Source of the DNA: Patescibacteria group bacterium
GTDB lineage: Bacteria > Patescibacteriota > Microgenomatia > UBA1400 > MFAQ01
Reading direction: 5' to 3'
Length of the DNA: 64,000 nucleotides
Assembly (NCBI GenBank): GCA_943355005.1
Contig: CALRDV010000003.1
Location: forward strand, 72,590 to 136,589
Shown here: positions 776 to 45,995 of the stretch, piece after piece
How the letters are laid out: every line of letters starts with the position of its first letter
Position numbering within the stretch: position 1 is the first letter of the stretch
Made by a program: the position numbers and the translations under genes
The notes under the pieces: model-generated
The model's input: the letters and a program-made list of their open reading frames with translations, nothing else
The model's database searches: none
Told to the model about the DNA's origin: nothing

Positions 776-1885
776 ATGGCTACAAAAGCTAAAGAAGTTG
801 CGGTCACAACCAAAAAAGAGACCAAACCCGCCGTCGTTAAAAACTCTGGCGAGGTAAAGAAAGTAGTTAAGAAGACAGCAGTTAAGAAACCCGCCGTCGT
901 TAAAAACTCTGGCGAGGCAAAGAAAACCGTTAAGAAAACAGCTGTTAAGAAACCCGCCGTCGTCAAAGACTCTGGCGAGACGAAGAAGGCTGTTCCGAAA
1001 AAAGCTCCCGTAAAGAAGATTGTGAAGAAATCTGACAAGAGTGAGATTGCCAGGTCGAGTACTCCTCGCAATGACGATTTGGGGATGGATTCCGGGTCTG
1101 AGCCCGGAATGACAGATGAAGTGAAGATTGAGAAAACAAAAGTAGAGGAGAAGAAAGTTGAAGTAGTCAAAAAAGAATATCCTAGAACAGAAACATCTAT
1201 TGAAGAGCTTTTTGAAGCCGGTGCCCATTTTGGCCACGTGGTCAAAAAATGGAATCCTAAGATGAAAAAATATCTTTGGGGAGCCAAGAACGGTATTCAT
1301 ATTTTCGATCTTGAGAAAACAGTCGCAGGAGTTAATGAAGCTACCAAGGCTTTGACCGAGATGGCTGCTGCAGGAAAGAGAATTGTTCTTGTTGGAACCA
1401 AGAGACAGGTGAGAGCTATGGTGGAGGAAGAGGCCAAGAGACTCAATATCCCTTACATAACTCAGCGCTGGATGGGTGGATTAATCACCAACTGGAAACA
1501 ACTCAAGCTCACTTTGGACAGATTGAATTCTTTGAAATCCAAGAGAGAGTTGGGACAGCTAAAGAAATACACCAAGAAGGAACAGCTTTTATTCGATAAA
1601 GAGATCAATAAGCTTGAGAGAATCGTCGGTGGTATTGCTTCTCTTAGGGAAGCCCCTGAAGTGGTAGTCGTTTTCGATACCCACAAAGAGAAATTGGCTG
1701 TCAAAGAAGCTTCCAGTCGTGGAGTTCAAGTGGTCGGCTTGGTAGATTCCAATGCAAACCCTGATCCGATTGATTACTTAATCCCTATGAATGATGACTC
1801 TGCCAAAGGTTTGGAAATCTTGGTGAGAGTTCTTGGACAGGCGATTGAGAATGGACAGAAAGCAAAGAAGGAAGTTAAGAATTAA
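776..1885 (+). CDS. rpsB: 30S ribosomal protein S2 with a ~130 aa Lys/Ala/Val-rich N-terminal extension.
   Basis: The C-terminal 240 aa match the S2 core (EAGAHFGH...WNPKM...IFDLEKT). The extension is built from 63-bp tandem repeats plus codons from an embedded hairpin repeat. An alternative start at Met 1109 would give a canonical-length S2. Confidence 0.9.
   Translation: MATKAKEVAVTTKKETKPAVVKNSGEVKKVVKKTAVKKPAVVKNSGEAKKTVKKTAVKKPAVVKDSGETKKAVPKKAPVKKIVKKSDKSEIARSSTPRNDDLGMDSGSEPGMTDEVKIEKTKVEEKKVEVVKKEYPRTETSIEELFEAGAHFGHVVKKWNPKMKKYLWGAKNGIHIFDLEKTVAGVNEATKALTEMAAAGKRIVLVGTKRQVRAMVEEEAKRLNIPYITQRWMGGLITNWKQLKLTLDRLNSLKSKRELGQLKKYTKKEQLLFDKEINKLERIVGGIASLREAPEVVVVFDTHKEKLAVKEASSRGVQVVGLVDSNANPDPIDYLIPMNDDSAKGLEILVRVLGQAIENGQKAKKEVKN
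824..1012 (+). repeat. Three tandem copies of a 63-bp repeat (aaacccgccgtcgttaaaaactctggcgag...) encoding KPAVVKNSGE-KK-VKKTAVK units.
   Basis: Copies begin at 824, 887 and 950 with exact 63-nt periodicity. Seen directly. Confidence 0.85.
1046..1114 (+). repeat. Composite hairpin repeat (attgccaggtcgagtactcctcgcaatgac + ggattccgggtctgagcccggaatgaca) inside the rpsB reading frame.
   Basis: The sequence matches intergenic units at 5227, 27036, 2408 and 38017. The rpsB ORF stays open through it. Confidence 0.8.
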
Positions 1886-1895
1886 GGAATTTATT

Positions 1896-1927
1896 TATAT
1901 AGATTCCCGATCAGGTCGGGAATGACA
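1896..1927 (+). repeat. Hairpin repeat unit, type A (tatagattcccgatcaggtcgggaatgaca).
   Basis: The same 30-mer occurs at 25316 and 36182. Confidence 0.85.
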
Positions 1928-1946
1928 TTAATTAAACATAAAGAAT

Positions 1947-2399
1947 ATGATGGACAAGATTAAAGAATTAAGAGAAAAGACCGGCGCCGGTATTATGGAC
2001 GCTAAGAAAGCTTTGGAAGAAGCCAACGGTGATATGGCCAAGGCCATGGACATCATCAAGGCTAAGGGGATTCTGAAGGCTGAGAGTAAGGCTGACCGAG
2101 AAGTCCGCAGTGGTCGTGTTTACTGTTACACACACGGAGGTGGTTCAGCTGCAGCCATGGTAGAAGTGGCTTGCGAAACCGACTTTGTAGCTAAGACTCC
2201 TGAGTTCGAAACACTTTGCAAAGAGATTGCAATGCAAATTGTATCTATGGACCCAAAAACAGTAGAAGAACTGATGAAGCAGGATTATATCCGCGATGGC
2301 AGTAAAACGATGGATGCTTTGGTCAAGGAGCTTTCGGGTAAAACCGGTGAAAACATCCGCGTGACCAGATTTGCTAGATTTAAATTAGGAGTTGAGTAA
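1947..2399 (+). CDS. tsf: Elongation factor Ts (short form, 150 aa).
   Basis: N-terminal EF-Ts UBA-like motif (IKELREKTGAGIMDAKKALEEANGDM) and conserved rpsB-tsf synteny. Confidence 0.85.
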   Translation: MMDKIKELREKTGAGIMDAKKALEEANGDMAKAMDIIKAKGILKAESKADREVRSGRVYCYTHGGGSAAAMVEVACETDFVAKTPEFETLCKEIAMQIVSMDPKTVEELMKQDYIRDGSKTMDALVKELSGKTGENIRVTRFARFKLGVE

Positions 2400-2407
2400 T
2401 ATTTAGA

Positions 2408-2438
2408 TTCTGGATTCCGGGTCAAGCCCGGAATGACA
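2408..2438 (+). repeat. Hairpin repeat unit, type B (tctggattccgggtcaagcccggaatgaca).
   Basis: Member of the GGAATGACA-ended repeat family. Confidence 0.8.
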
Positions 2439-2465
2439 GATAAAAAAATGTTTTGTTATAAAAAA

Positions 2466-2489
2466 TCCCCCCCGCCATGGCGGGGGGGA
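2466..2489. terminator. Bidirectional rho-independent terminator between tsf and the convergent membrane gene.
   Basis: Hairpin tccccccgccatggcgggggggat flanked by an A-run and a T-run. Confidence 0.7.
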
Positions 2490-2513
2490 TTTGGGTTTGA
2501 TGCGATTGTGAGA

Positions 2514-3224
2514 TTATTGATTTCGGTAACGGCCTGGTTCAAGCTGAAGTAGTGCATCCCCGGTTTCTGCGTCGACGTAGGGGGCCGCTTCGCTGTAACC
2601 TGCGTTGTTAGCTGCAAGATATTTTGCCCTTGCCCTTGGGTCTTCAAAAAGGAACTGTGCCTCTTTGACGAGCCCTGCAATATTCGAACTTTGTTCCAGT
2701 TGTCTGTCCAATGTTGGTCCCGAAAAGGCACCCTTCGTGACTGTCATGGTAATCATTCTGCCTGTTCGGGGGTCGGGAAGCTGGAGCTTGACGCTATCTG
2801 CTTTTTTGACTCCGTAACCACGGTTCATGCCGTAAGCGATAACCGCGAGAACACCAATAAGTACTACGGCGACAATCGCCACAATGATAATGGTAAGGCC
2901 GTATCGGGGATTAGTGGCGTACATGTACATAGACAGAGTGATTATGCCTACAAGAACGCTTGAGGCAAAGCCGCTCCATGTCTTGCCGAAGTACATAACT
3001 CCAAAGGAAACTATTCCTACGACAAAATAGAACATCAAGCTTTGACCGTACTCCGGATGAGACATGTAGAAAGCCAAACCGGTTAAGATAACGCTGATAA
3101 GAAAGCTGGCTACCAGCCCGGTCAAAGACGCTTGGCTGATTTTGAAGATGACGGTTGTGAGAATGACAATTAGAACGCCAAATAAAAGTATATATAGCCG
3201 GGGATCATTCAAGGTTATGGGCAT
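2514..3224 (-). CDS. Hypothetical membrane protein with four N-terminal TM helices and a soluble C-terminal domain.
   Basis: 236 aa ORF with hydrophobic segments. Confidence 0.6.
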   Translation of the reverse strand: MPITLNDPRLYILLFGVLIVILTTVIFKISQASLTGLVASFLISVILTGLAFYMSHPEYGQSLMFYFVVGIVSFGVMYFGKTWSGFASSVLVGIITLSMYMYATNPRYGLTIIIVAIVAVVLIGVLAVIAYGMNRGYGVKKADSVKLQLPDPRTGRMITMTVTKGAFSGPTLDRQLEQSSNIAGLVKEAQFLFEDPRARAKYLAANNAGYSEAAPYVDAETGDALLQLEPGRYRNQ

Positions 3225-3412
3225 TTATTCCTCCAAGTTGATGGATTTAGTTTTTAAAGAAAACTTATAGTTCGATTATATATCTAATAGGCACGATGTC
3301 AACAAATCAAGCTCATAAATACCCTATAACTTGACAATGTGCCCAAAATATGGTATAAAGACGATGCAATATTGACAATTGACAGTAATAATCAAACATC
3401 CTTGGAGGTCCA

Positions 3413-3544
3413 ATGACATTTTACGATCGAAAGTTTGAAGGCTACAGTTTGTTCCTTCTGATTTTTGGAGTCCTCAACCTCGGAAACCACGGACTAGGAC
3501 TTGTCTTTATATATTTAGCTTTTAAGTTTAGCAAGCCCGCATAA
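3413..3544 (+). CDS. Small hydrophobic protein of 43 aa, not in the ORF track.
   Basis: ATG preceded by GGAGG at -8. Encodes MTFYDRKFEGYSLFLLIFGVLNLGNHGLGLVFIYLAFKFSKPA and is followed by a hairpin terminator at 3548-3575. Consensus-like promoters lie upstream (TTGACA at 3332). Confidence 0.35.
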   Translation: MTFYDRKFEGYSLFLLIFGVLNLGNHGLGLVFIYLAFKFSKPA

Positions 3545-3625
3545 AAAGTGGGACCTTAGTAAGGTCCTATTTTAATAACTACTTAGGTTATAATGTGAAC
3601 GCAAATTGATATAAGGAGATAACTT

Positions 3626-4141
3626 ATGGCTGATATGAAGTTGTTGGAGAAATTGCCGGAAATTTGTGATGTCGATGAACTGCACACGTTGCTTTGTGAG
3701 AACGAGGCGCTTATCGTCGCATTTACCGGCAAGGAAGATATTGGGATCATGCTCAAGAAATTCTACGAAGAGCAAGTGGCTGGTGCTCGAACTTCGGATC
3801 GGGGCATACAGTTTTCCAAAGAGGGTGCCCGGGTTTGGAATGACGATACCGTCAAAAGCAAAAAAGCTGTCAACCCGCGGGATGTCGTGCTTGGACTGTA
3901 CTTGGCGATCGAAGCACTCGAGCTCGGTCATGGGCGGGACAAGCCTGGAGTAATTGGTCACGGGAGACTGCCAGAAATTTGTTCATTCAAATACATGACT
4001 TTCACGGTTGAGTCTTACGCAATCTATCCCATGTTTGATTGGAAAGATGCCCACTTCACGGCTAATGAACAGAATGAAGTGGTTGGATGGATAAGAGCCG
4101 GAAGAGACAAGATATCAGATCGTGATAAGTTCGTCGCTTAA
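3626..4141 (+). CDS. Hypothetical protein.
   Basis: 171 aa ORF with an upstream TATAAT and a downstream terminator. Confidence 0.6.
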   Translation: MADMKLLEKLPEICDVDELHTLLCENEALIVAFTGKEDIGIMLKKFYEEQVAGARTSDRGIQFSKEGARVWNDDTVKSKKAVNPRDVVLGLYLAIEALELGHGRDKPGVIGHGRLPEICSFKYMTFTVESYAIYPMFDWKDAHFTANEQNEVVGWIRAGRDKISDRDKFVA

Positions 4142-4149
4142 GTATTATT

Positions 4150-4177
4150 AGACCTACATTCGTGTAGGTCTTTTTTG
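4150..4177 (+). terminator. Rho-independent terminator.
   Basis: Hairpin agacctacattcgtgtaggtct followed by tttttt. Confidence 0.7.
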
Positions 4178-4202
4178 TGGGGTAATGTTAGAATAAGTTT
4201 AT

Positions 4203-4766
4203 ATGGTATTAGAACATGAGCTCATCCAACTATTAAGACAAAAGTTTGCCAAAGTAATCGAAGTGGTCGAGGAGGACTTTGCCACGGTCCGAGTGGGCAG
4301 AGCAAAACCAGAATTGGTTTCCGGAATTTCTGTGCCGGCATATGGCACATGGATGAAGCTGGTGGAAGTGGCGACAATCACGGCGCCGGACACCAATATG
4401 CTTATTGTGACGCCATTCGATAGAAGTTTGCTTGGAGCGGTCGAGAAGGCAATAAGTGATAGTGAGATGCAGCTTTCCGGAGTAGTAAATGGAGACTTAA
4501 TCCGTATCGTGATTCCGTCGCTGACACAAGAAAGAAGATTGGATTTTGTAAAACTACTCAAGCAGAAGACAGAGTCAGGGAAAATAATGCTAAGACAGGC
4601 TAGGCAGGATATTAAGGAGAAAATTGATGCTCTCAAGGAGATGAAAGAAGTATCTGAAGACGATATCTATATGCTTCTGGCCGACTTGGATAAAATTACG
4701 GGAGAGTTCAATGAGAAGATTGAGGAGATGAGTAGGAAAAAAGAAGATGAAGTGATGGCGGTTTAA
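4203..4766 (+). CDS. frr: Ribosome recycling factor.
   Basis: 187 aa with the RRF pattern (VRVGRAKPELVSGISVPAYG...IPSLTQERRLDFVKLLKQ). Confidence 0.9.
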   Translation: MVLEHELIQLLRQKFAKVIEVVEEDFATVRVGRAKPELVSGISVPAYGTWMKLVEVATITAPDTNMLIVTPFDRSLLGAVEKAISDSEMQLSGVVNGDLIRIVIPSLTQERRLDFVKLLKQKTESGKIMLRQARQDIKEKIDALKEMKEVSEDDIYMLLADLDKITGEFNEKIEEMSRKKEDEVMAV

Positions 4767-4777
4767 TTGTTTATTTT

Positions 4778-4808
4778 TCTGGATCCCGGATCAGGTCCGG
4801 GATGACAG
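4778..4808 (+). repeat. Hairpin repeat unit, type C (tctggatcccggatcaggtccgggatgaca).
   Basis: Member of the repeat family. Confidence 0.8.
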
Positions 4809-4813
4809 GCTTA

Positions 4814-5206
4814 TTAGTTGGAGAAGGCGAGTTTTTCTAGCTTGGTGACACGGTTTTTAGTAGTTTCGTGATCTTCTTTGAGTTCGTTTATAACCGAGAC
4901 TATGTTTTTGTTCATACCTTCCATTTGTTGTTGAAAATCTTTTAGTGTTTCTATAATTTCGATTTGTCCTTCTTTGAGCTCTTTTTGTCCTTCTTCTAAT
5001 TTGTATTGACCTTCTTTAAGTAGTGATAGTTGATTTTGAACATCGGTAAATCCAAATGCAGTTCGAGCTTCAGATTCGTCTAGATCTTCTTTGGTAGAGA
5101 GCTTTGAAACCTCGTTTGCCAGATCTTCTTTGGTAGCAAAGTTCTTCAAATCTTCTTTGGTGGCAAAAACATCTTTTAGTTTTTCGATGTCTTTATTGGT
5201 GATCAT
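4814..5206 (-). CDS. Hypothetical coiled-coil protein with three ATKEDLK repeats.
   Basis: 130 aa ORF. The nucleotide repeat atcttctttggtagc occurs three times. Confidence 0.55.
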   Translation of the reverse strand: MITNKDIEKLKDVFATKEDLKNFATKEDLANEVSKLSTKEDLDESEARTAFGFTDVQNQLSLLKEGQYKLEEGQKELKEGQIEIIETLKDFQQQMEGMNKNIVSVINELKEDHETTKNRVTKLEKLAFSN

Positions 5207-5226
5207 TGCTTAATATTAACAATTTT

Positions 5227-5258
5227 AGATTGCCACGTCGAGTACTCCTCGCAATGAC
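5227..5258 (+). repeat. Hairpin repeat unit, type E (gattgccacgtcgagtactcctcgcaatgacgg).
   Basis: Near-identical to the units inside rpsB (1046) and nadA (27036). Confidence 0.8.
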
Positions 5259-5280
5259 GGATGTTACTTGGTAAGATTGA

Positions 5281-6366
5281 TTGATGCAAATAATCGTGTT
5301 TATCTTAATGTTGTCAGTTTTGGTTCTTATCCACGAACTTGGTCATTTCTTGATGGCTAGACTTTTTAAGATGAGAGTTGAGGAGTTTGGAATTGGAATC
5401 CCACCTAGAGCCAAGAAGCTTTTTACACACAAGGGGACTCTGTTTAGTTTGAATTGGTTGCCCATTGGTGGTTTTGTAAAGCTTTATGGTGAGGATATGG
5501 ACGATCCGTCACAAGCTAGTTCTCCGGAGGCTTTTTTTAATAAGCCAATATGGCAAAGGGCGGGAGTGCTGGTAGCTGGAGTTACCATGAACTTTCTCTT
5601 AGGTGTCTTTGCTTTTGGGGTGGTTTACACCGTACTTGGTATTCCTACCAAAACAGATAAAGTAATTGTGGTGGATGTGGGTAAGGGGACGCCGGCCGAG
5701 ACTGCAGGAATTAAGATAGGAAGTGAAATCAAGAAAATTACTTTTGGAAATGAAGAGATTGTTTTTGTTGGTGTAGATGGTTTTATTAAGGCAGTAGAGC
5801 CACTAAAAGGTAAAACCATTGATATAACTACCCTGGTAAAAGACGGTACCGAAGAAGTTGTCGAAATAGTGCCAAGACTAGATCCTCCACAAGGACAAGG
5901 TGCTCTCGGTGTAGCTCTATCGAATATTGAAATGAAAATGTATCCTATATGGCAAAGACCTTTTCGAGGTATAGTCGTCGGAATGGAAGAGGCCTGGTCC
6001 TGGGGCAAAGAAATTGCGTCGAGTATGGGAACTTTGATTTGGGGGATTTTGACCGGCAAAGGTGTGCCAAAAGATGTATCCGGCCCGATTGGAATTTATC
6101 AAGTAAGTAAACAGGTTTATTCGGTGGGTTGGATTGCGGTGATTCAGTTTATGGCAATTCTCTCGATAAACTTAGCAATCTTGAATATTATGCCTTTCCC
6201 GGCGCTTGATGGTGGAAGAGTATTCTTCTTATTTGTCGAGAAAATTATTGGCAAGAAATATAAAAATAGAATTGAAGGTTATGTACATACTGTGGGTATG
6301 ATTTTCTTGATTGGCCTCATGGTGCTAGTTACTGTAAGAGATGTTATACATTTAATTAGGCCATAG
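5281..6366 (+). CDS. rseP: RIP site-2 metalloprotease (M50 family, RseP-like) with a PDZ domain.
   Basis: HELGHF zinc motif near the N-terminus, a central PDZ-like region, and the C-terminal NIMPFPALDGGRV motif. Confidence 0.85.
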   Translation: MMQIIVFILMLSVLVLIHELGHFLMARLFKMRVEEFGIGIPPRAKKLFTHKGTLFSLNWLPIGGFVKLYGEDMDDPSQASSPEAFFNKPIWQRAGVLVAGVTMNFLLGVFAFGVVYTVLGIPTKTDKVIVVDVGKGTPAETAGIKIGSEIKKITFGNEEIVFVGVDGFIKAVEPLKGKTIDITTLVKDGTEEVVEIVPRLDPPQGQGALGVALSNIEMKMYPIWQRPFRGIVVGMEEAWSWGKEIASSMGTLIWGILTGKGVPKDVSGPIGIYQVSKQVYSVGWIAVIQFMAILSINLAILNIMPFPALDGGRVFFLFVEKIIGKKYKNRIEGYVHTVGMIFLIGLMVLVTVRDVIHLIRP

Positions 6367-6370
6367 AAGT

Positions 6371-7108
6371 ATGACTATTAGTGAAGATGAACATGGATTT
6401 ACTGTCGAAAAAAGTGAAAAAGAGATACCCTTAAGTTCAATTCATGGGGAAGGTGTCAAAATCAAAGTTTACGAGATAACAAATAAACAGGTAGGCGGAG
6501 CAGATGCTAAAAGTCACATTGTGGGAAGATTTGTAAGTAAAGATGGTTTTGAGAGTAGTGAAAATATTCCTATGTTTGTAAAGCAGGCTAAGGTCAACGA
6601 AGAGTATTTTGGTGGTGAAAAAGAAGGTATGTCTGCAGCCGAAAGGTATTTTGAAAGATGGAAGTTTCTAAGAGATTTGGGGGTTCCTGTAGTTCCTAAT
6701 GTTGTGGTTTTAGATGGGGGGAGGGTTGCGATGACAAATCTAGGAATTAATGGTTCTGAATTTTTTGGAAAAGCATGGAGACATGGTCCAAAAGCAAACA
6801 GAAATTCAGGACGCCGAGAGCTATCAAAAGCCGAACAAGCTGTTTTGTCAATTAGTGATAAAAAGGTAATGTCTGAGATGGCAAGAATTAGGGACATTTT
6901 GGTCAAGGAAAAAATTCGTTTACCATATGACGATCCGTTTGATTTCTTAGTTCACCCAGATGGAAGCTTTGAAATCTTGGTCCATGATCCTGAAGCTTTG
7001 GAGTGGGGGGAATATGATAATTCAAAAAAAGACAAAGAAGATCCTCTTCTTTTAGAGCCTATACATCTAAGATTACTTAAAGAAGAGCTTGAAGATTTGA
7101 GTCTTTAG
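6371..7108 (+). CDS. Hypothetical protein, paralog A of a tandem pair.
   Basis: 245 aa. Shares ERYFERWKFLRDLGVP and DDPFDFLVHPDGSFEILV blocks with the ORF at 7330..8034. Confidence 0.6.
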   Translation: MTISEDEHGFTVEKSEKEIPLSSIHGEGVKIKVYEITNKQVGGADAKSHIVGRFVSKDGFESSENIPMFVKQAKVNEEYFGGEKEGMSAAERYFERWKFLRDLGVPVVPNVVVLDGGRVAMTNLGINGSEFFGKAWRHGPKANRNSGRRELSKAEQAVLSISDKKVMSEMARIRDILVKEKIRLPYDDPFDFLVHPDGSFEILVHDPEALEWGEYDNSKKDKEDPLLLEPIHLRLLKEELEDLSL

Positions 7109-7137
7109 ATTAAAATTTATAAATTGACAATCAGATG

Positions 7138-8034: not shown

Positions 8035-8042
8035 ATGAAGTA

Positions 8043-39952: not shown

Positions 39953-41261
39953 CCTCAGGGTCCCTCCTCATGCAGATGAAGCTGAGAAATCCATTTTAGG
40001 GTCTGTCCTAATTGATAAAGATGCGATAGTCGACATTGCAGTTATTTTGCGGCCGGAAATGTTTTACAACGAAAACAACGGCAAAATCTTTGAAGCAATG
40101 ATCACTCTTTATGAGATGCGAGATCCGATTGATGTGCTTACAGTTTCTGATTGGCTCAAGAAAAATAAGGTGCTGGACAGGGTGGGAGGAAGGGCGTATA
40201 TTTCCGAACTCTCAAATGAAGTCCCGGTGGCTTCACATGTGTCTAAGTATTCTCAAATTGTCAGAGATTGCTATATTAAACGGCTTTTGATTTCAGCGGG
40301 TGCTCAGATGGGAGAGATGGGCTTTGATGAAGGAAAACCTTTGGGTGAGATTCTCGACAAGGCAGAGCAATCTATTTATGCGCTTTCTCAAACACATGTT
40401 AGAAAATCTTTTGTTCCAATCAAAGATGCTCTGGCGGAAAGTTTTGATCGTTTAGATTCTCTGCATAATTCACCGGATGGACTTCGAGGTGTTCCTACGG
40501 GATTTTCTGACTTGGATAATATGTTAGCAGGGATGCAGGACAGTAACTTAATTATTTTGGCGGCGCGTCCTGGTATTGGAAAAACAACTTTTGCAACTAA
40601 TATTGCTCAGTATGCGGCGGTAGAAAGAAAGATGCCGGTGGGATACTTTGCTCTGGAAATGAGTAACTTGGAAATGGTCGACCGTATGCTTGTGGGCCAA
40701 GCTAATATTGATGCTTGGAAACTTAAAACAGGAAATCTTAAGGAAGATGACTTTGCTAGATTGTCCGAAGCAATGGGCGTTTTGGCGGATTGTCCTCTGT
40801 ATATCGATGATACTCCTGGACAATCTATCCTAGAGCTTCGCACCAAAGCCCGTAAACTTCACTCACAAGTAGGATTAAAACTTCTTGTTGTTGACTACTT
40901 ACAGCTGGTAGTAGGGGATAAGAGCTATGAAAGTAGGGTGCAGGAAGTGGGTGCGATTTCGCAGGGTTTGAAAAATCTAGCTCGTGAACTTAAAATTCCG
41001 GTATTGGCTTTGTCTCAGCTTAATCGAGGAATTGAGGGTAGAACAGAGAAGACACCGCAGCTTTCTGACCTCCGTGAGTCTGGAAGTATCGAGCAAGATG
41101 CAGACGTAGTCATGTTCCTATATCGTAATGATGACAATATTTTGGAAGATATTAATTTGTCGATAGCCAAGCACCGTAATGGTGGTTTGGGGACAATTAG
41201 TCTCAAGTTCCGAGGTGATCGTGTGAAATTCTATGGTGTAGATCATGGACATAAGAGCTAG
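39945..41261 (+). CDS. dnaB: Replicative DNA helicase DnaB.
   Basis: N-terminus PPHADEAEKSILGSVL, Walker A GARPGIGKTTFA, and a RecA-like C-terminal domain. Confidence 0.9.
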   Translation: MANLRVPPHADEAEKSILGSVLIDKDAIVDIAVILRPEMFYNENNGKIFEAMITLYEMRDPIDVLTVSDWLKKNKVLDRVGGRAYISELSNEVPVASHVSKYSQIVRDCYIKRLLISAGAQMGEMGFDEGKPLGEILDKAEQSIYALSQTHVRKSFVPIKDALAESFDRLDSLHNSPDGLRGVPTGFSDLDNMLAGMQDSNLIILAARPGIGKTTFATNIAQYAAVERKMPVGYFALEMSNLEMVDRMLVGQANIDAWKLKTGNLKEDDFARLSEAMGVLADCPLYIDDTPGQSILELRTKARKLHSQVGLKLLVVDYLQLVVGDKSYESRVQEVGAISQGLKNLARELKIPVLALSQLNRGIEGRTEKTPQLSDLRESGSIEQDADVVMFLYRNDDNILEDINLSIAKHRNGGLGTISLKFRGDRVKFYGVDHGHKS

Positions 41262-41303
41262 GCTTTTTTGTGGTAAATTTAAGTGATATTAATTAACTTA
41301 ATT

Positions 41304-41897
41304 ATGGCAAAAACTTATCCTTACATGTTAGATTCGTTACCTTATGCATTCGACGCTCTTGAGCCGGTTATAGATCAAGAGACCATGATGATCCACCATG
41401 ATAAACATCATCAGGCATATGTAGACAATCTAAATAAATCTATGGAGGCAAATCCTAGTTTACAAGCTAAGACTCTGGACGAGTTATTTTCTTCCGATAT
41501 TCCTGTGGTGAAGAATAATGCCGGTGGAGTTTGGAATCATGATTTTTTCTGGGATGAGATGGTTACCCCCGGTAGTTCTCAAATGGGAGAAAATCTTAAG
41601 GTGGAAATAGAGAAAAACTTTGTAAGTGTGGATGAGTTTAAAGCAAAGTTCGAAACATCAGCCTTAACTAGATTTGGTAGTGGTTGGGCTTGGCTGGTGA
41701 TGAATAAAGATGGGGGGCTGGAGATTATGTCTACTGCAAACCAAGACAATCCGATGGTTGACGGTTTTAAACCCTTGTTGGCAATTGATGTTTGGGAGCA
41801 TGCTTACTATTTGAAGTATAAAAATAAAAGAGCCGACTATGTCAAAGCTTGGTGGGAAGTGGTGAACTGGGATGTGGTGGAGTCAAGGATGAAATAG
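41304..41897 (+). CDS. sodA: Fe/Mn superoxide dismutase.
   Basis: MAKTYPY ... HHDKHHQAYV ... DVWEHAYYL. The start is placed at the internal ATG 41304, not the track's 41283. Confidence 0.9.
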   Translation: MAKTYPYMLDSLPYAFDALEPVIDQETMMIHHDKHHQAYVDNLNKSMEANPSLQAKTLDELFSSDIPVVKNNAGGVWNHDFFWDEMVTPGSSQMGENLKVEIEKNFVSVDEFKAKFETSALTRFGSGWAWLVMNKDGGLEIMSTANQDNPMVDGFKPLLAIDVWEHAYYLKYKNKRADYVKAWWEVVNWDVVESRMK

Positions 41898-41941
41898 CCA
41901 ATAAAAATGACTCTCGATTGAGAGTCATTAGTTTTATGGAA

Positions 41942-42457
41942 TTATTTAAGAGGGATTAGCTTCCAGGATGATGGTTTATTGGAGAGCGCAGCACCGCTTG
42001 TAGTAGTTGTGCTAATGTTGAAGTGTTGGATTACCTCTAGCATCCCGAGTTCTGATCCTAAGAGTAATTTTGCTTGATTGATGTACCACCAAGCCCTGGG
42101 AAAGGTAACGTATGATCGGTAAGTTGCTTGACCGCTTACAATATGGTCTTGTAAAACTTTTATTTCGCCCGTGTGCAAGAAATACACTGAGATATTTTCA
42201 TCCATGCGAATGCAAGGAGTGAAAAAATAATGGGTGATAATTTCATCGCCATCTTTGCTGGCTTCGGTAAGTGGTCCGTAGTTCCCAGCGGAAAAAAGAT
42301 AATAACTGGCGGCTGAGTTATCTGGTGTGGCTGCCCAGCTTGGAACAACACCTGAATTACTTTTGAGAAACTCCTCGGCTGAGGCTAGAAAAATCTTTGG
42401 GTTGACGTGTATCACGGTTTCCTCTTTTCTTTGGTTTAAGGGGCAATTTGATGTCAT
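41942..42457 (-). CDS. Hypothetical protein.
   Basis: 171 aa ORF. Confidence 0.55.
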   Translation of the reverse strand: MTSNCPLNQRKEETVIHVNPKIFLASAEEFLKSNSGVVPSWAATPDNSAASYYLFSAGNYGPLTEASKDGDEIITHYFFTPCIRMDENISVYFLHTGEIKVLQDHIVSGQATYRSYVTFPRAWWYINQAKLLLGSELGMLEVIQHFNISTTTTSGAALSNKPSSWKLIPLK

Positions 42458-42531
42458 ATAGTAACATATATCCTATATAATGTCAATCGAGCTTAAAAGT
42501 GATAAATTTCTGTTAAAATAGAGTGTTAGTT

Positions 42532-42614
42532 GCCGGGATGGCGGAATGGTATACGCTCAAGTCTCAAAAACTTGTGGTCGCAAGGCCGTGAGGGTTCGAC
42601 TCCCTCTCCCGGCA
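42532..42614 (+). tRNA. tRNA-Leu (anticodon CAA), type II with a long variable arm.
   Basis: Folded by hand. Acceptor GCCGGGA/TCCCGGC, anticodon stem CAAGT/ACTTG with loop CTCAAAA, T-arm GAGGG-TTCGACT-CCCTC. CCA is not encoded. A terminator lies at 42625-42652. Confidence 0.85.
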
Positions 42615-42624
42615 CATTAAAAAA

Positions 42625-42652
42625 TACGCGCCTCGTGCGCGTATTTTTTTAC
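42625..42652 (+). terminator. Rho-independent terminator after the tRNA.
   Basis: atacgcgcctcgtgcgcgtat followed by ttttttt. Confidence 0.7.
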
Positions 42653-42662
42653 AAAAAACCCG

Positions 42663-42875
42663 CTACTTTGCGGGTTTATTAAGTGTCGAATACAGGATTG
42701 ATCTTATTAGTCGATTACAGTTATAACAACGTATCTCGACGTATTTCCCAACTCTTTTTACTTTTCGTAAGTTCGAACTTACTCCACATCCGCCTTTGTG
42801 TCGGTGGCAATGGTATTTTCCTTCTTTTCTGGGTAGTCGTGGGGTGACTTCGCTACCGGTTATTGGACCATTCAT
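42663..42875 (-). CDS. Small, very basic Cys/His-containing protein (zinc-ribbon-like).
   Basis: 70 aa. Strong ribosome-binding site AGGAGG 5 nt before the ATG. Terminator hairpin at 42654-42680. The family was not recognised. Confidence 0.45.
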   Translation of the reverse strand: MNGPITGSEVTPRLPRKEGKYHCHRHKGGCGVSSNLRKVKRVGKYVEIRCYNCNRLIRSILYSTLNKPAK

Positions 42876-42955
42876 GTAGACCTCCTGAAGGTACTGTTGG
42901 CCTATATTTTATATCATTTCTTGCTATGCTTGAGGCTTAGGTTTAAAATAGGCTC

Positions 42956-43516
42956 ATGATTGATGTAAACAAGCTCAAAGTTGGCGTAACTTTTACCGAA
43001 GAGGGGATTCCTTATCGGGTAATGAAGTATGATTTTACAAAAATGGGGCGTGGACACGCGACTATTAAGGTAAAGGCAAGAAACCTTTTTAGTGGATCTA
43101 TTGAAACTAAGGGTTATATCTCAGGTAATATGGTTGAGGATATTTTGCTAGACAAAAGGCACTTACAGTATCTCTATAAAGACGATGAAAAGGCATTTTT
43201 TATGGATCCGTCTACTTTTGAACAGGTTGAAATCCCCTTAACTGTCCTAGCTGATGATGTTCTGTACTTAGTAGAAGGTGAAAAGTCTTGGGTACTTTTC
43301 TGGGATGAAAAGATACTGGGAGTTGAAGTTCCCACTTCTGTGATTATGAAAATTGCCGAGACCGAGCCTGGTGCTCGAGGAAATACCGTCAGTAACGTTC
43401 TTAAGCCGGCTAAGACCCTTTCAGGGCTTACGGTGATGGTTCCTTTGTTTATTAGTGAAGGGGACACTATTAAAATCAATACGGAAACCGGGGAATATAC
43501 CGGTAGGGCGAATTAA
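42956..43516 (+). CDS. efp: Elongation factor P.
   Basis: 186 aa with the EF-P KOW and OB pattern (KVGVTFTEEGIPYRVMKYDFTKMGRGHA). Confidence 0.9.
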   Translation: MIDVNKLKVGVTFTEEGIPYRVMKYDFTKMGRGHATIKVKARNLFSGSIETKGYISGNMVEDILLDKRHLQYLYKDDEKAFFMDPSTFEQVEIPLTVLADDVLYLVEGEKSWVLFWDEKILGVEVPTSVIMKIAETEPGARGNTVSNVLKPAKTLSGLTVMVPLFISEGDTIKINTETGEYTGRAN

Positions 43517-43538
43517 AAACCCGCCATTCGTGGCGGGT

Positions 43539-43862
43539 TTAGCTGTTCGATCTGAGAGAATTGCGTAATTTGTCGCACCTTAGTCGCCAGTCCGGAACAA
43601 GATCTTTTTTGGAGATTGTTGACTCGAAGTCGGTAAGGATGTAATTCAACACCTCGGTTTGGATTTCAAGGGTTAAATATTCCCTGGCAATTTCCAAAGA
43701 GGCGATGAGAAAGTCATCTGTAAGAGATGATATTGCTTCTTTTTCTGTGGGTTGGTCATAACAAACTCCGGCAATATCATAGCCACGGAGATCCTTTACT
43801 TCAGGGTCGAACTTGAACTGGTATCCGGCTTTAGATGTAACCAAAAAAATGACTTCGTTCAT
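43539..43862 (-). CDS. Hypothetical protein.
   Basis: 107 aa ORF. Hairpin terminator at 43518-43540. Confidence 0.5.
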   Translation of the reverse strand: MNEVIFLVTSKAGYQFKFDPEVKDLRGYDIAGVCYDQPTEKEAISSLTDDFLIASLEIAREYLTLEIQTEVLNYILTDFESTISKKDLVPDWRLRCDKLRNSLRSNS

Positions 43863-43952
43863 GTTCTCTCCTCTCTTTTGGGATTATTCAGGTGCCAAAC
43901 TTCGGTTATTATCCCATAAATACCTGATTATGGCTAGTTTTGACTTATAAAG

Positions 43953-44399
43953 TTATTTTAGGAGTAGAATTAGTAAAATTACCAGGAATTGGGGAAGCAG
44001 TCCCCAGAATTTGTTCGAAGTGGAGCGGTGACACCAGGTATGAAAAGCAGCGAATTTTTTCATTAATGGCCCACGAAAGTTAAGAAATAGGTAGGGGAAT
44101 TCTATGAAATCCGGTAAAAGCCCGAAAAACCAGCCTAGCCAGGGACGGTAGTCGAAGGGACGACCGACCTGAAAAAATAGATAGACAATAAGAAAAGAGA
44201 GGGGGAAATCAATAAAAAGCTCTTGAAGAAAGGCTGACTTTTTACTCTTCTTTTGGTGAGTCAGTCCTTGACCGACATCCCAGTGGGGGACGCGATCTTC
44301 CAGAAAATGAGAAGCTAAAATAAGGGGAATACTGATAAAGGGGTTGTTGATTTTTGAGGCGATAAAAGCGCCGGTGGGTCCATGAGCGATGGATAGCAT
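43953..44399 (-). CDS. Hypothetical membrane protein. It may be a YdjM-like membrane-bound hydrolase, which is weakly supported.
   Basis: 148 aa with hydrophobic segments and His/Asp residues at the N-terminus. Confidence 0.45.
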   Translation of the reverse strand: MLSIAHGPTGAFIASKINNPFISIPLILASHFLEDRVPHWDVGQGLTHQKKSKKSAFLQELFIDFPLSFLIVYLFFQVGRPFDYRPWLGWFFGLLPDFIEFPYLFLNFRGPLMKKFAAFHTWCHRSTSNKFWGLLPQFLVILLILLLK

Positions 44400-44426
44400 A
44401 TGTTTTTTTAGTATACTCTATGTATC

Positions 44427-45161
44427 ATGAATGACGCTATTTACAGAATAGGAACAATTTCTATTTACGGGTTTGGGTTATTAGCAACTCTGTCGTTTCT
44501 GTGGGGGTCTTTTGTCTTTTACAAAAAAGCAATTGGTTCTCATGTGGAGGAATTTCATATTTTAGACGGGGTGGTGATGTCGGCATTTTGGGCTTTTATT
44601 ATTGGGAGGCTTTCCTTTGTTGTGTTAAATATAGGAACATTTTGGAATCATTTTTCTAGAATCTTTTTGTTTTCAAATTTTCCGGGTATCGATAAATGGG
44701 GAGTGATAATTGGAGTTTTCCTTGGAGCTTATTGGACTATCCGTAGAGTTAAGGCAAAATGGCTCGATTGGTTCGATTTGATTTCTTTGGGTATTAGTGC
44801 AGGAATTTCGATTTTTTTTGCAGGATTGTCAATATTAACTTTTTCTTGGCAGTATACGGTTTTGGCGCTTATTTATTTGTTTATCTTTGTTTTTGGGTGG
44901 GGAGCGGAGGAGAAGTACCGGACTTATGCTTGGTACAAAAGTAATAAGACTTCAGCCAAATCTGGATTGATTACAGGTCTTTCTTGTTCTGCTTGGGGAA
45001 TAGTCTCAATCTTGGAAAAGTTTATTTTTGGGAAGATGAATCTATTAGAAATATTGTGGGGATCATTACTGTTTGTGGCAGGTATAGTTTTAGTGTATAT
45101 TAGGTCTGGAAGGACAGTGAATGAAGATATTAAAATAATTTTTAAACATGGAAGAAAATAA
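44427..45161 (+). CDS. Polytopic membrane protein, possibly a divergent prolipoprotein diacylglyceryl transferase.
   Basis: The N-terminal pattern IYGFGLLATLSFLWG...IIGRLSFV resembles Lgt, and lspA lies in the same operon. The Lgt signature GRxGNFxNxE was not found. Confidence 0.35.
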   Translation: MNDAIYRIGTISIYGFGLLATLSFLWGSFVFYKKAIGSHVEEFHILDGVVMSAFWAFIIGRLSFVVLNIGTFWNHFSRIFLFSNFPGIDKWGVIIGVFLGAYWTIRRVKAKWLDWFDLISLGISAGISIFFAGLSILTFSWQYTVLALIYLFIFVFGWGAEEKYRTYAWYKSNKTSAKSGLITGLSCSAWGIVSILEKFIFGKMNLLEILWGSLLFVAGIVLVYIRSGRTVNEDIKIIFKHGRK

Positions 45162-45531
45162 TAAAATCAAATTCCCTTTATCCGTGCTTAAACCGCTAAT
45201 TTCTTACCTCAAAGGTGAAGAAAAACGCTTAAAGGAAACTAAGAAAGAGCTAAAAAAGGAGGACCCTTTTATTGTTGGTAATCGAGACGAGGATAATTCG
45301 GTAGATTCCGACGTAGCCGAAAATGTCGAGCATGACAGAACTTTCGCAATGAGGAAGCAGGTAAGTCGCTCTATCATTGAAATCCGAAAAACACTAACCA
45401 GGATAAAGCTTGGAAAATACGGAATTTGTGCAAGTTGCGGAAAAATGATTGATACTGACAGGCTCGCCGTGAATCCTACTGCTGAGTTCTGTATGACCTG
45501 TGAAACTCAGATTGAAAAGAAGAGGGGATGA
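45148..45531 (+). CDS. DksA/TraR-family C4 zinc-finger protein.
   Basis: C-terminal CASCGKMIDTDRLAVNPTAEFCMTC. Confidence 0.7.
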   Translation: MEENNKIKFPLSVLKPLISYLKGEEKRLKETKKELKKEDPFIVGNRDEDNSVDSDVAENVEHDRTFAMRKQVSRSIIEIRKTLTRIKLGKYGICASCGKMIDTDRLAVNPTAEFCMTCETQIEKKRG

Positions 45532-45952
45532 AATAAAACAAAATCTGTTTAAAAAATATTTAATTCTGGCCATTAGTTCGAGTTTTGTAATACTTGATAT
45601 TTTTTTGCAGTCATATTTTCGCAATAGGGGATTGGGGATTGAAAATCGAGGTGTGTCTTTTGGAATTTTTTCAGGCTGGGGTCAGGGGATTGCAATTGTA
45701 GTTTTCTTTCTTTTTATTCTATTTTCCTCAAGGAGCTTTATAAAAGGGAAGTCTGACTTAGGGTTGTTGATGATTCTGATTGGGGGCCTGGGAAACTTGA
45801 TTCCCAGGTTGTTTCAGGGCGGTGTATGGGATTATATTTATTTGCCACTTTTGCCCTTTTGGTTTAATTTTTCGGATGTCATGATAACCGGTGGGGTATT
45901 TTTGTATGGATGGAGGGAGATTGCTTCAGCTCGAGTACGAGATTCGCAATGA
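45500..45952 (+). CDS. lspA: Lipoprotein signal peptidase II.
   Basis: LspA motifs GVSFGIF and GGLGNLIPR...WDYIYL...FNFSDVMITGGV. The last codons and the TGA stop lie inside a hairpin repeat. Confidence 0.8.
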   Translation: MKLRLKRRGDEIKQNLFKKYLILAISSSFVILDIFLQSYFRNRGLGIENRGVSFGIFSGWGQGIAIVVFFLFILFSSRSFIKGKSDLGLLMILIGGLGNLIPRLFQGGVWDYIYLPLLPFWFNFSDVMITGGVFLYGWREIASARVRDSQ

Positions 45953-45995
45953 CGGGAGGGTGGAGTGAGTCTCGCCAGGGCGGGAGACGGTGACT
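45935..45995 (+). repeat. Hairpin repeat, type E variant, followed by a GC-rich palindrome (gagtctcgccagggcgggagac).
   Basis: The unit cgagtacgagattcgcaatgacgg supplies the lspA stop codon (caaTGA). Confidence 0.65.

What the first reader, a model, noticed from the sequence alone, without database searches (positions are those of the whole stretch)
1046..45995. Hairpin repeats lie inside conserved genes without breaking the frame, resembling Rickettsia palindromic elements
The open reading frames of rpsB (1046-1114), the large membrane protein (17979-18085), nadB (25316-25345, encoding TFCHSRPDRESIKI), nadA (27036-27071, encoding SNIRHCEEQRDVAIS) and ychF (30567-30591 and 30668-30693) run straight through repeat copies. 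These copies are near-identical to intergenic copies. In lspA the repeat supplies the last codons and the stop codon (caaTGA at 45950). Six of six intragenic copies preserve the downstream frame, which implies selection for in-frame insertion. Translated, palindrome-derived peptide insertions in proteins are essentially known only from Rickettsia RPEs, so this would be an independent case.
Basis: partly seen in the sequence, partly recalled or inferred. Interest (0 to 1): 0.85.

Follow-up and report, generated by a model that had tools for sequence, protein, structure and literature searches.

The report
Translated palindromic repeats in CPR genes
A tiny-genome, Collierbacteria-like bacterium carries three families of short hairpin repeats, and about half of the copies sit in frame inside working genes, the same kind of event already known from Rickettsia and several other bacteria.

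Summary
The window (about 41% GC, Collierbacteria-like Microgenomates/CPR) has 32 units of three short palindromic families. A is TGTCAT-tagged, single or head-to-head dimer. C is CGTCATTGCGAGG…GGCAATCT. B is CCTGCAAGGA-NNN-TCCTTGCAGG. Fourteen units lie wholly inside ORFs and two overlap an ORF end, all in frame and stop-free.

Orthologs at 75–87% identity show lineage-specific insertions in S2, NadA, the membrane protein and a secreted protein (38063–38803). NadB is longer than E. coli NadB at the site. LspA's tail is replaced and its stop supplied by a C unit. The insertion loops are hot spots: sister lineages hold other palindrome families, nested units, decayed remnants or nothing.

Both ychF copies are real units but not net insertions. 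Length and residues match the relatives.

Family B has a cognate RAYT-like Y1 transposase at 53679–54362. It is flanked by B units and carries two in frame at positions where homologs elsewhere carry their own hairpins.

This is an RPE-like case in a new phylum, but intragenic translated REPs are already catalogued outside Rickettsia (PMC3733652). It is a new member of a known kind, of moderate interest.

The parts
1044..1114 (+). Family C unit (1044-1076) plus family A unit (1083-1114) inside rpsB. They encode SEIARSSTPRNDDLGMDSGSEPGMT in the Lys-rich N-terminal tail of S2.
   Evidence: Searches give the sequence. In one search the nearest S2 (P0002, 87% identical) lacks the segment, and other relatives carry independent C-like inserts (…SRTPRND…, …TETRND…). 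One search places the S2 domain from residue 145.
17978..18109 (-). Family A head-to-head dimer (17978-18056) plus a degenerate C-like unit (18074-18109) inside a 565-aa polytopic membrane protein. They encode AWQSRLNRKVVIPATEPESRISGFYLYRFRVKPGMT.
   Evidence: Searches give the sequence. In one search the segment lies in a loop that varies in length and sequence among 8 orthologs; L084 is shortest and others hold different repeat-derived peptides. One search gives the dimer fold at -32 kcal/mol, z = -5.0.
18927..18951 (-). Family B hairpin at the 5' end of the membrane-protein ORF. It encodes YLQGLSLQV if the ATG at 18973 is the start.
   Evidence: L101 has a B-like hairpin at the same place (…HLQGLSSQV…), while the other relatives start MK(R/H)W directly. 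The start codon is uncertain.
25314..25345 (-). Family A unit inside nadB, encoding (F)CHSRPDRESI(K) in the linker between the FAD domain and the C-terminal helical domain.
   Evidence: In one search the protein is 8 residues longer than E. coli NadB at this point. In some searches relative L085 carries a different CGTCAT-tagged unit (VISTGAEKSQS) at the same site, offset by 1 nt. One search gives fold z = -3.3.
27036..27083 (-). Family C unit inside nadA, encoding NIRHCEEQRDVAISLH.
   Evidence: In one search, residues 213-244 have no counterpart in Pyrococcus NadA structures. Searches show a baseline loop of 16 aa (L093, L097) against 31 aa here. The same unit is in P0282, L081 has it with nested inserts, and decayed versions occur in L101, P0287 and others. 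(AlphaFold2, mean pLDDT 92.2) models the insert as a helix.
30567..30589 (+). Family B hairpin inside ychF, encoding PARTILAG. It is a real unit but not a net insertion.
   Evidence: One search gives 92% identity to the unit beside the transposase. Searches show the hairpin and the PAR-x-ILAG peptide in six relatives, with only synonymous variation. One search shows outgroup L002 already has CCTGCAAGGAC for P-A-R-T, without the right arm.
30667..30693 (+). Family A variant unit inside ychF, encoding MDPRIREDD. It is a real unit but causes no length change.
   Evidence: One search gives 27/27 identity to intergenic 36136-36162. Searches show relatives with DDPRLKEE of the same length and no hairpin. 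Immediately 3' of this point L084 and L096 carry an A unit (SGSEPGMT) and L083 and L108 carry a C unit.
38718..38749 (-). Family A unit inside the signal peptide of a secreted protein (ORF 38063-38803), encoding VIPAKAGIH.
   Evidence: L108 and L084 have SVIFHP (TCTGTCATCTTCCATCCA) where the window has GTCAT-TCCTGCGAAGGCAGGAAT-CCATCCA. L084 has an unrelated 28-aa C-type dimer after MKK.
45922..45995 (+). Family C unit (45922-45953) replacing the C-terminal tail of lspA and supplying its TGA stop, followed by a second degenerate C-like unit.
   Evidence: In some searches, eight relatives end …SYILxGDGNxDxV(RR) and the window ends …LYGWREIASARVRDSQ*. Direct reading shows a possible remnant of the old end (GGAGACGGTGACTGA = GDGD*) at about 45977-45991.
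53620..54918 (+). REPtron-like locus. It holds a RAYT-like Y1/HUH transposase gene (53679-54362) and five family B hairpins. Units 53620-53642 and 53828-53850 have loop CCA; units 54139-54161, 54365-54389 and 54896-54918 have loop TGG, the opposite orientation. Two of the five are in frame inside the transposase.
   Evidence: One search gives Pfam Y1_Tnp at E = 3e-9. One search gives NCBIfam REP_Tyr_transpos as the best and only hit (40.6 bits, below the cutoff of 80). Searches show the motifs YHIYNRG, NHFHL and YIHRNP. In some searches, homolog loci L111 and L112 carry their own, different hairpins at the same internal positions.
1896..46824 (.). Intergenic units of families A and C. Family A: 1896-1927, 2407-2438, 4776-4807, 10612-10700 (dimer), 27747-27810 (dimer), 36136-36211 (dimer), 37982-38046 (dimer) and 46750-46824 (dimer). 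Family C: 5227-5265 and 23906-23943.
   Evidence: In one search the closest genome (L109, genes about 80% identical in DNA) lacks the units at 2407, 4776-5259 and 10612-10700. In one search six relatives lack the dimer at 27747-27810.

Best explanation
The window comes from a Collierbacteria-like Microgenomates (CPR) genome colonised by at least three families of REP-type short palindromic repeats. They behave as small non-autonomous mobile DNA.

The genome is very compact: at most about 14% is non-coding, since the 86% coding figure uses longest ORFs and is an upper bound. About half of the surviving units therefore sit in coding sequence. They survive only where they add a multiple of three bases, carry no stop, and land in a tolerant part of the protein, such as a disordered tail, a surface loop, an interdomain linker, a signal peptide or a C-terminal tail. 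There they are translated as peptides of about 8-30 residues (inferred). Over time these peptides decay into ordinary, lineage-specific loop sequence.

Once a site tolerates a unit it becomes a hot spot. Other units nest in it or replace it, and different lineages hold different families at the same loop.

Family B is probably moved by the RAYT-like Y1/HUH single-strand transposase encoded at 53679-54362, as in REP/REPIN-RAYT systems (inferred). Families A and C share a (C/T)GTCAT tag, have no transposase of their own in the window, and resemble the 'CGTC' REP superfamily that includes the short Rickettsia RPEs.

Shown: the repeats, their in-frame position, their absence or difference in orthologs, and the linkage of B units to the transposase gene. 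Inferred: translation, mobility by the transposase, and selective neutrality.
For: - Repeat families and counts come (21 tagged hairpins against 2.6 expected). One search counts 32 units: 14 inside ORFs, 2 overlapping an ORF end and 16 intergenic, with a coding fraction of 0.86.
- Insertions relative to orthologs or solved structures: NadA, NadB, S2, membrane protein, ORF 38063 and the LspA tail.
- Hot spots: the NadA loop holds C, A, 'VRTLRAMPLP' or 'GVGxxAYP' palindromes, or nothing, in different relatives, and L081 has nested inserts. The YchF loop holds A or C units in relatives and C-like peptides in distant CPR YchFs. A distant NadA (P0390) has REP-like peptides in the same loop.
- Recent mobility: the closest genome, L109, lacks several intergenic units. 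Six relatives lack the nadC-nadA dimer. Relatives carry far fewer A units per kb.
- Frame and stop constraints fit translation. Only about 64% of frames of A units and 72% of C units are stop-free, yet every intragenic copy is open and downstream frames are kept.
- The NadA model stays confident (mean pLDDT 92.2) with the insert as a helix.
- Transposase link: and co-varying internal and flanking hairpins in homolog loci L111 and L112.
- Prior descriptions of intragenic REPs and RPEs: PMC3733652 and PMC10969869.
Against: - There is no direct evidence that the peptides are made, because no proteome or transcriptome is available.
- The two ychF units do not fit simple insertion. There is no length change and the residues match those of relatives. 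The YchF NJ tree nests the window inside the clade, so 'intact here, decayed everywhere else' needs several parallel decays (no branch support was computed).
- Family B lacks the GTAG/GTGG tetranucleotide that defines classical REPs. The transposase scores below NCBIfam's RAYT cutoff and has no sequence match to any solved structure.
- No mobilising enzyme for A or C was found among the 40 window ORFs scanned against Pfam (about half of the roughly 81 ORFs called), and only 64 kb were examined.
- Family C units are poor hairpins.
Confidence: 0.8

Rival explanations
1. The intragenic hairpins are not selfish insertions. They are locally evolved, selected nucleic-acid structures, for example transcription or translation pause sites, mRNA stability elements or binding sites for the transposase-like protein. 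They happen to share sequence because they serve one regulator.
For: - The ychF family B hairpin is conserved in six relatives with no length change. L101 has changes on both arms that keep pairing, and L083 has a different 8-bp hairpin at the same spot.
- The hairpins inside the transposase gene sit at conserved positions in homologs with lineage-specific sequence.
- A and B units are very stable hairpins.
Against: - Both ychF arm changes are synonymous third-position changes, and all four combinations occur among relatives. This is as expected from drift rather than selection on pairing.
- Most intragenic units are absent from, or replaced by unrelated families in, close relatives.
- Half of the units are intergenic with presence/absence differences.
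- The host genes are functionally unrelated.
Confidence: 0.1
2. Units spread mainly by a homology- or tag-directed copying process, such as microhomology-mediated template switching or short-patch gene conversion, that overwrites sequence already resembling part of a unit. They do not spread by cut- or copy-and-paste insertion at new sites.
For: - ychF site 1: the left arm CCTGCAAGGAC already encodes P-A-R-T in outgroup L002, and the hairpin appears with no length gain.
- ychF site 2: a unit 27/27 identical to an intergenic copy occupies codons whose protein sequence matches the relatives.
- ORF 38063: the 'empty' sites in L084 and L108 already contain TGTCAT…CCATCCA, the tag and tail of an A unit.
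- The nadC-nadA dimer ends in ATGAC, which is the ancestral nadA start context in relatives.
- nadB holds two different GTCAT-tagged families at the same nucleotide position in two lineages.
Against: - This rests on only four or five sites, all read by eye, with no statistics on how often tag-like sequences occur at random.
- The S2, NadA and membrane-protein sites are clear length-adding insertions.
- A pre-existing tag is also what a Y1 transposase that inserts next to a short target motif would leave behind.
- The empty sites could be hairpin deletions.
Confidence: 0.2
3. The affected genes are pseudogenes, or the repeats are assembly artefacts of a metagenome-assembled genome.
For: - The source is evidently a metagenome assembly.
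- nadB is missing or truncated in several relatives.
Against: - All the ORFs are full length with complete Pfam domains and invariant residues.
- The NadA model is confident.
- The same kinds of in-frame units occur in dozens of independent assemblies from JGI, ENA, NCBI and Logan.
Confidence: 0.02

Closest known systems
Rickettsia palindromic elements (RPE; Ogata et al. 2000 Science 290:347 and 2002 Genome Res 12:808, as cited in PMC10969869 and PMC3733652)
   Same: - Several families of palindromic repeats occur in a small genome.
- A large share is inserted in frame in unrelated housekeeping genes at positions compatible with the fold.
- The same families also occur between genes.
- The short RPEs end in CGTC, like family C here.
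   Different: - The host is a CPR/Patescibacteria lineage, not an alphaproteobacterium.
- Units are 25-45 bp, or 65-80 bp as dimers, whereas the RPEs as first reported are about 150 bp (PMC10969869).
- One family here has a linked transposase, and none is known for RPEs.
- Sequence relatedness to RPE consensus sequences could not be tested.
- Expression of the peptides is shown for RPEs and not shown here.
CGTC-tagged REP superfamily (Di Nocera et al. 2013, PMC3733652)
   Same: - Short stem-loops carry an unpaired tag at one end (family C: CGTCAT in 4 of 6 units).
- Head-to-head dimers are frequent.
- No dedicated transposase is known.
- Codogenic intragenic copies, including dimers encoding 20-30 aa, are already documented for this superfamily.
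- Units at ORF ends supply stop codons.
   Different: - That paper reports the superfamily from Proteobacteria, Chlorobi, Bacteroidetes, Spirochaetes and Thermotogae, not from CPR.
- Family A here is mostly TGTCAT-tagged (17 of 19 units).
- The intragenic share here (about 45-50% of units) is high.
REP/REPIN-RAYT systems, or REPtrons (Bertels & Rainey 2011, PMC3116915; classification in PMC6006769)
   Same: - The transposase is of the Y1/HUH type, with RAYT as its best family match.
- It is flanked by its own hairpin repeats in opposite orientations.
- Copies are dispersed elsewhere in the genome.
- Inverted dimers are the apparent unit for family A.
   Different: - There is no GTAG/GTGG tetranucleotide.
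- Two cognate hairpins lie in frame inside the transposase ORF at positions conserved in homologs.
- Five of seven B units lie in ORFs rather than between genes.
- Copy number in the window is low.
In-frame fusions by bacterial MITEs (intragenic ERIC, Coxiella QMITE1, Anabaena MITEs; reviewed in PMC10969869 and PMC3184786)
   Same: Small non-autonomous repeats with open frames become part of host ORFs.
   Different: Those elements are 70-300 bp with terminal inverted repeats. They are not single 8-11 bp-stem hairpins.

Membership tests
Rickettsia palindromic elements (RPE) | A multi-copy palindromic repeat present both between genes and inside ORFs of one genome. | tested here: met
   One search counts 32 units, of which 14 are inside ORFs, 2 overlap an ORF end and 16 are intergenic.
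Rickettsia palindromic elements (RPE) | The intragenic copy is an in-frame extra segment that is absent from orthologs. | tested here: met
   Met for S2, NadA, the membrane protein, ORF 38063 and NadB versus E. coli. Not met for the two ychF units.
Rickettsia palindromic elements (RPE) | Sequence homology to one of the RPE-1 to RPE-10 consensus sequences, with the ~150-bp size of RPEs as first reported. | not testable with these tools
   No RPE library was available, and Rfam gave only a tRNA. Unit size of 25-45 bp does not match the ~150 bp RPEs as first reported (PMC10969869). The short RPE-4 and RPE-6 are CGTC REPs according to PMC3733652.
Rickettsia palindromic elements (RPE) | The inserted peptide is expressed. 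| not testable with these tools
   Only indirect evidence exists: every intragenic unit is stop-free and frame-preserving.
CGTC-tagged REPs (PMC3733652) | A short stem-loop with an unpaired CGTC at one end. | tested here: inconclusive
   Family C has CGTC in 4 of 6 units but pairs weakly. Family A has TGTC in 17 of 19 window units and CGTC in several relatives.
CGTC-tagged REPs (PMC3733652) | Units are frequently arranged as dimers in opposite orientation. | tested here: met
   Family A dimers lie at 10612-10700, 17978-18056, 27747-27810, 36136-36211, 37982-38046 and 46750-46824.
CGTC-tagged REPs (PMC3733652) | No dedicated flanking transposase. | tested here: inconclusive
   No transposase is flanked by A or C units among the 40 window ORFs scanned against Pfam. 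Only 64 kb of the genome was seen, and about half of the roughly 81 ORFs were not scanned.
REP-RAYT (REPtron) | A Y1/HUH transposase of the RAYT family. | tested here: inconclusive
   Pfam Y1_Tnp gives E = 3e-9. NCBIfam REP_Tyr_transpos is the only hit but scores 40.6 bits against a cutoff of 80. The HUH and Tyr motifs are visible. There is no sequence match to any solved structure.
REP-RAYT (REPtron) | The transposase gene is flanked by its cognate hairpins in inverted orientation. | tested here: met
   B units with loop CCA lie at 53620 and 53828, and B units with loop TGG at 54139, 54365 and 54896. Homolog L111 has the same layout with different hairpins.
REP-RAYT (REPtron) | A GTAG or GTGG tetranucleotide 0-2 nt 5' of the hairpin foot. 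| tested here: not met
   The flanks of the seven B units read …ACCTGCAAGG… and …CCTTGCAGGT…, with no GTAG or GTGG.
REP-RAYT (REPtron) | The repeats are extragenic. | tested here: not met
   Five of the seven B units lie inside ORFs.

The most novel reading that the evidence does not exclude
In this CPR lineage, hairpin repeats are a main generator of loop and tail diversity in essential proteins. Two features go beyond known REP/RPE biology.

1. Units can take over pre-existing coding sequence that already resembles their tag or one arm, with no length change and near-conservative residues. The cases are the two ychF sites and the signal peptide of ORF 38063. This implies a tag- or microhomology-directed copying mechanism rather than plain insertion.

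2. The RAYT-like transposase carries its own cognate hairpins in frame at two conserved positions of its ORF, and these co-vary with the dispersed copies across distant homologs. This suggests that the enzyme's cis-acting sites, or its autoregulation, lie inside its own coding sequence.
Probability: 0.2. Interest if true: 0.75.

Novelty: new member of a known kind. Interest (0 to 1): 0.55.

Why it matters
This extends translated palindromic repeats from Rickettsia and a handful of other phyla to the Candidate Phyla Radiation, a very large and poorly studied bacterial group with tiny genomes.

- It shows with close-relative comparisons that particular protein loops are recurrent landing sites. 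The full path is visible in one NadA loop: fresh hairpin, nested units, then decayed ordinary sequence.
- It has a practical side. Such units inflate and diversify CPR protein sequences, create spurious 'hypothetical' peptides, and shift annotated start and stop codons.
- The transposase with in-frame cognate hairpins offers a compact system for testing how REP-type repeats are recognised.

Tried and rejected
- Exact look-ups of the window's YchF and S2 found no contig, so the source record was not identified. A 100% identical S2 and LspA are on record from NCBI/ENA on a 168-kb contig.
- The species-representative genome scan gave no close relative (YchF 58% identical at best). The metagenome scan with NadA supplied the useful relatives.
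- After the protein alignments I first judged ychF site 2 (30668-30693) a false positive. I reversed this when an identical 27-nt intergenic copy turned up at 36136-36162.
- I looked for covariation support for the ychF hairpin. The two-arm change in L101 consists of two synonymous changes, each also seen singly in other relatives, so it is not evidence of structural selection.
- Rfam found no known RNA family at the repeats.
- The sequence search of solved structures with the transposase found nothing.
- Literature searches for REP, RAYT or palindromic elements in CPR/Patescibacteria returned nothing relevant. Absence from the searchable library is not proof that it is unreported.
- Pfam scans of 40 window ORFs found no other transposase. 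The only other recombinase is a XerC/D-type at 59360-60307.

Full report
**What is in the window**

The 64-kb window has about 41% G+C and a strong positive GC skew throughout. It encodes housekeeping genes: rpsB, tsf, frr, dnaX, recR, cysS, nadB, nadA, nadC, ychF, a release factor, dnaB, lspA, a pseudouridine synthase, a XerC/D-type recombinase and gyrA. The best named relatives of S2, LspA and NadA are Candidatus Collierbacteria and other Microgenomates. The species-representative genome set holds nothing closer than 58% YchF identity. The one-sided GC skew has been described for this order, UBA1400 (PMC7143001).

**The repeats**

Three families are clear.

- **Family A** is (T/C)GTCAT followed by an 8-9 bp stem that starts at the AT of the tag, a 3-6 nt loop, and a tail ATCCAGAA or ATCTATA. 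There are 19 units, 12 of them arranged as six head-to-head dimers of 65-80 bp.
- **Family C** is CGTCATTGCGAGG, a variable core, then GTGGCAATCT. There are six units, and they are weak palindromes.
- **Family B** is a perfect 10-11 bp stem, CCTGCAAGGA-NNN-TCCTTGCAGG. There are seven units.

GTCAT-tagged hairpins number 21, against 2.6 expected from shuffles. A and B units fold far better than shuffled controls (z = -3.3 to -5.0). The nadA C unit and the ychF A-variant do not.

**Where the units sit**

Of 32 units, 14 lie wholly inside ORFs, 2 overlap an ORF end and 16 are intergenic. ORFs cover about 86% of the window, an upper bound from longest ORFs. Units are therefore depleted in coding sequence relative to random placement, but far more often genic than the name 'extragenic' suggests.

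I found five more in-frame units: 18927, 38718, 53828, 54139 and 54365.

**Are they insertions?**

I compared the window with solved structures and with syntenic relatives recovered from metagenomes (NadA 75-83% identical, YchF 75-86%).

| Gene | Result |
|---|---|
| nadA | Insertion; loop is a hot spot |
| rpsB | 24-residue insertion in N-terminal tail |
| membrane protein | Insertion in a hypervariable loop |
| nadB | 8 residues longer than E. coli NadB |
| ORF 38063-38803 | Insertion in the signal peptide |
| lspA | Tail replaced, stop supplied |
| ychF (two units) | Real units, no net insertion |

*NadA.* Residues 213-244 have no counterpart in Pyrococcus NadA. Among close relatives the flanks GADIFFP and FIGWEGKCEVH are nearly invariant, but the loop ranges from 16 residues (L093, L097) to more than 55.
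- The window and P0282 carry the same C unit (…RHCEE.RD.AISLH…).
- L081 carries it with nested inserts.
- L092 carries an A unit (SRHSGLDPES).
- L082/L083/L096 and L084/L086 carry two other palindromes.
- L101, P0287 and others carry decayed versions of similar length.

A distant NadA (P0390, 49% identical) has REP-like peptides in the same loop. An AlphaFold2 model built with 51 sequences is confident (mean pLDDT 92.2) and shows the insert as a helix, residues 209-226.

*S2.* The 24-residue segment lies in a Lys-rich N-terminal tail. It is absent from the nearest homolog (87% identical). Other relatives have independent C-like inserts there.

*Membrane protein.* The A dimer plus C-like unit lies in a hypervariable loop. 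Relatives hold other repeat-derived peptides there or a short loop.

*NadB.* The protein is 8 residues longer than E. coli NadB at the interdomain linker. Relative L085 carries a different GTCAT-tagged unit at the same nucleotide position.

*ORF 38063-38803.* 'VIPAKAGIH' replaces 'VIFH' in the signal peptide. L084 has an unrelated 28-residue C-type dimer a few codons upstream.

*LspA.* Eight relatives end …SYILxGDGNxDxV. The window switches to …GWREIASARVRDSQ* inside a C unit, whose GCAATGAC supplies the stop.

**The ychF exceptions**

Both ychF units are real copies. One is 92% identical to the unit beside the transposase. The other is 27/27 identical to an intergenic unit, including a shared stem mismatch.

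Yet YchF here is no longer than in H. influenzae or T. thermophilus or in its close relatives. PAR-x-ILAG and DDPR(L/I)(K/R)E are shared by the relatives. An outgroup already uses CCTGCAAGGAC for P-A-R-T.

The family B hairpin is present in most relatives. Its arm differences are synonymous, and all four combinations occur among relatives, so they give no evidence for structural selection.

At the second site the relatives lack hairpin potential. A YchF neighbour-joining tree nests the window inside the clade, although I computed no branch support. Two readings remain open:
- An old unit stayed intact only in this lineage and seeded the copy at 36136.
- A unit overwrote similar sequence.

I could not decide between them.

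**Signs of mobility**

- The closest genome (L109, genes about 80% identical in DNA) lacks the intergenic units at 2407 and 10612-10700. It also lacks the block 4776-5259, which in the window contains an extra 130-codon ORF flanked by an A unit and a C unit.
- Six relatives lack the dimer between nadC and nadA.
- Relatives carry about 0.05-0.1 A units per kb, against about 0.3 per kb here.

At several sites the empty ortholog already contains the tag or tail of the unit:
- ORF 38063: TGTCAT…CCATCCA.
- nadA start context: ATGAC.
- ychF: GGAA-ACG.

This would fit an enzyme that inserts next to a short target motif, or a homology-directed process. It rests on a handful of sites read by eye.

**A transposase for family B**

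ORF 53655-54362 most likely starts at M9, position 53679. It matches Pfam Y1_Tnp at E = 3e-9. Its only NCBIfam hit is 'REP-associated tyrosine transposase', at 40.6 bits against a cutoff of 80. It shows YHIYNRG, the HUH motif NHFHL, and YIHRNP. The family is large: 18,721 cluster representatives at E ≤ 0.001.

B units with loop CCA lie upstream and in the 5' part of the gene. B units with loop TGG lie in the 3' part, directly after the stop, and 530 bp further on. Two units are in frame inside the gene (…DLQGPSLQ…, …ACKDGPCRL…).

Homolog P0131 (55% identical) has different perfect hairpins (CCTGCAGGTTC/GAACCTGCAGG) at the same two internal positions and right after its stop. Homolog P0136 has one at the second position. 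The hairpins therefore co-vary with the enzyme, which ties family B to it.

The classical GTAG tetranucleotide is absent. I found no description of internal cognate hairpins or of CPR REPs in the searchable literature.

**Comparison with what is known**

Rickettsia RPEs are the classic case of in-frame palindromic insertions. However:
- Di Nocera et al. 2013 (PMC3733652) describe GTAG- and CGTC-tagged REP superfamilies and note that RPEs end in CGTC.
- They find no transposase for CGTC REPs.
- They list codogenic intragenic REPs in many species, including dimers encoding 20-30 residues and REPs that supply stop codons.
- A 2024 review calls in-frame MITE fusions 'not unusual' (PMC10969869).

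The present case is therefore a new member of a known kind in a new phylum. It has an unusually high genic share, well-resolved hot spots and a linked transposase.

**Verdict**

- Translation is strongly implied by frame and stop-codon statistics but is not shown.

Noticed in passing
window 1-64000: GC skew is strongly positive (about +0.1 to +0.34) along almost the whole window, whatever the gene orientation. This is the one-strand G/C disparity reported for UBA1400 Microgenomates such as Collierbacteria (PMC7143001).
   Followed up: partly
window 824-1012: Three tandem 63-nt copies (70-100% identical to the reference copy) encode a 21-residue Lys-rich repeat, KKPAVVKNSGE.KK.VKKTAV, in the N-terminal tail of S2. 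The tail length varies widely among relatives.
   Followed up: partly
window 4814-5206 (-): An extra 130-codon ORF with no family match is flanked by an A unit (4776-4807) and a C unit (5227-5259). The whole block is absent from the closest genome, L109, so it may be cargo moved with the repeats.
   Followed up: partly
window 7135-7208 and 8043-8116: A 74-nt duplication (91% identical) copies the start of the HIT-family gene. Both copies map to a single place in L109 (16768-16849).
   Followed up: no
window 21855-21881 / 22404-22430 and 10154-10183 / 19514-19543: Terminator-like G+C hairpins followed by T runs recur as near-identical copies (27/27 and 80%). This suggests a further small repeat family that doubles as terminators.
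   Followed up: no
L111 804-830, 1110-1132, 1330-1352; L112 703-725: Homologs of the window's RAYT-like transposase in unrelated contigs carry their own, different perfect hairpins at the same internal ORF positions and just after the stop.
   Followed up: partly
window 54359-54871 (-): A 170-codon ORF with no family match lies between two same-orientation B units. It ends in …RPARTILAGD*, the same repeat-encoded peptide as in YchF.
   Followed up: no
L082, L084, L086, L094, L101 (nadA flanks); L108 12507-12806: nadB lies next to nadA only in the window, L085 and L093. Most syntenic relatives lack it, and L108 keeps only the last ~100 codons behind a new start. NAD synthesis genes are therefore being lost in this clade.
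   Followed up: no
P0390 (distant NadA, 49% identical): A distant NadA carries 'HVIASEAKQS…EIASSQEAAPRND', two C-type repeat peptides, in the same loop as the window's insert. The site is therefore permissive well beyond this clade.
   Followed up: no
L001, L002, L013, L017 (YchF of other CPR phyla): C-like peptides (EIASSSSTPRND, VTASEAKQSQ, IASPTARNDE) and a 'PSTNSGQAP' peptide interrupt YchF in Levyibacteria, Daviesbacteria and other CPR genomes. Related repeat families are therefore widespread in CPR.
   Followed up: partly
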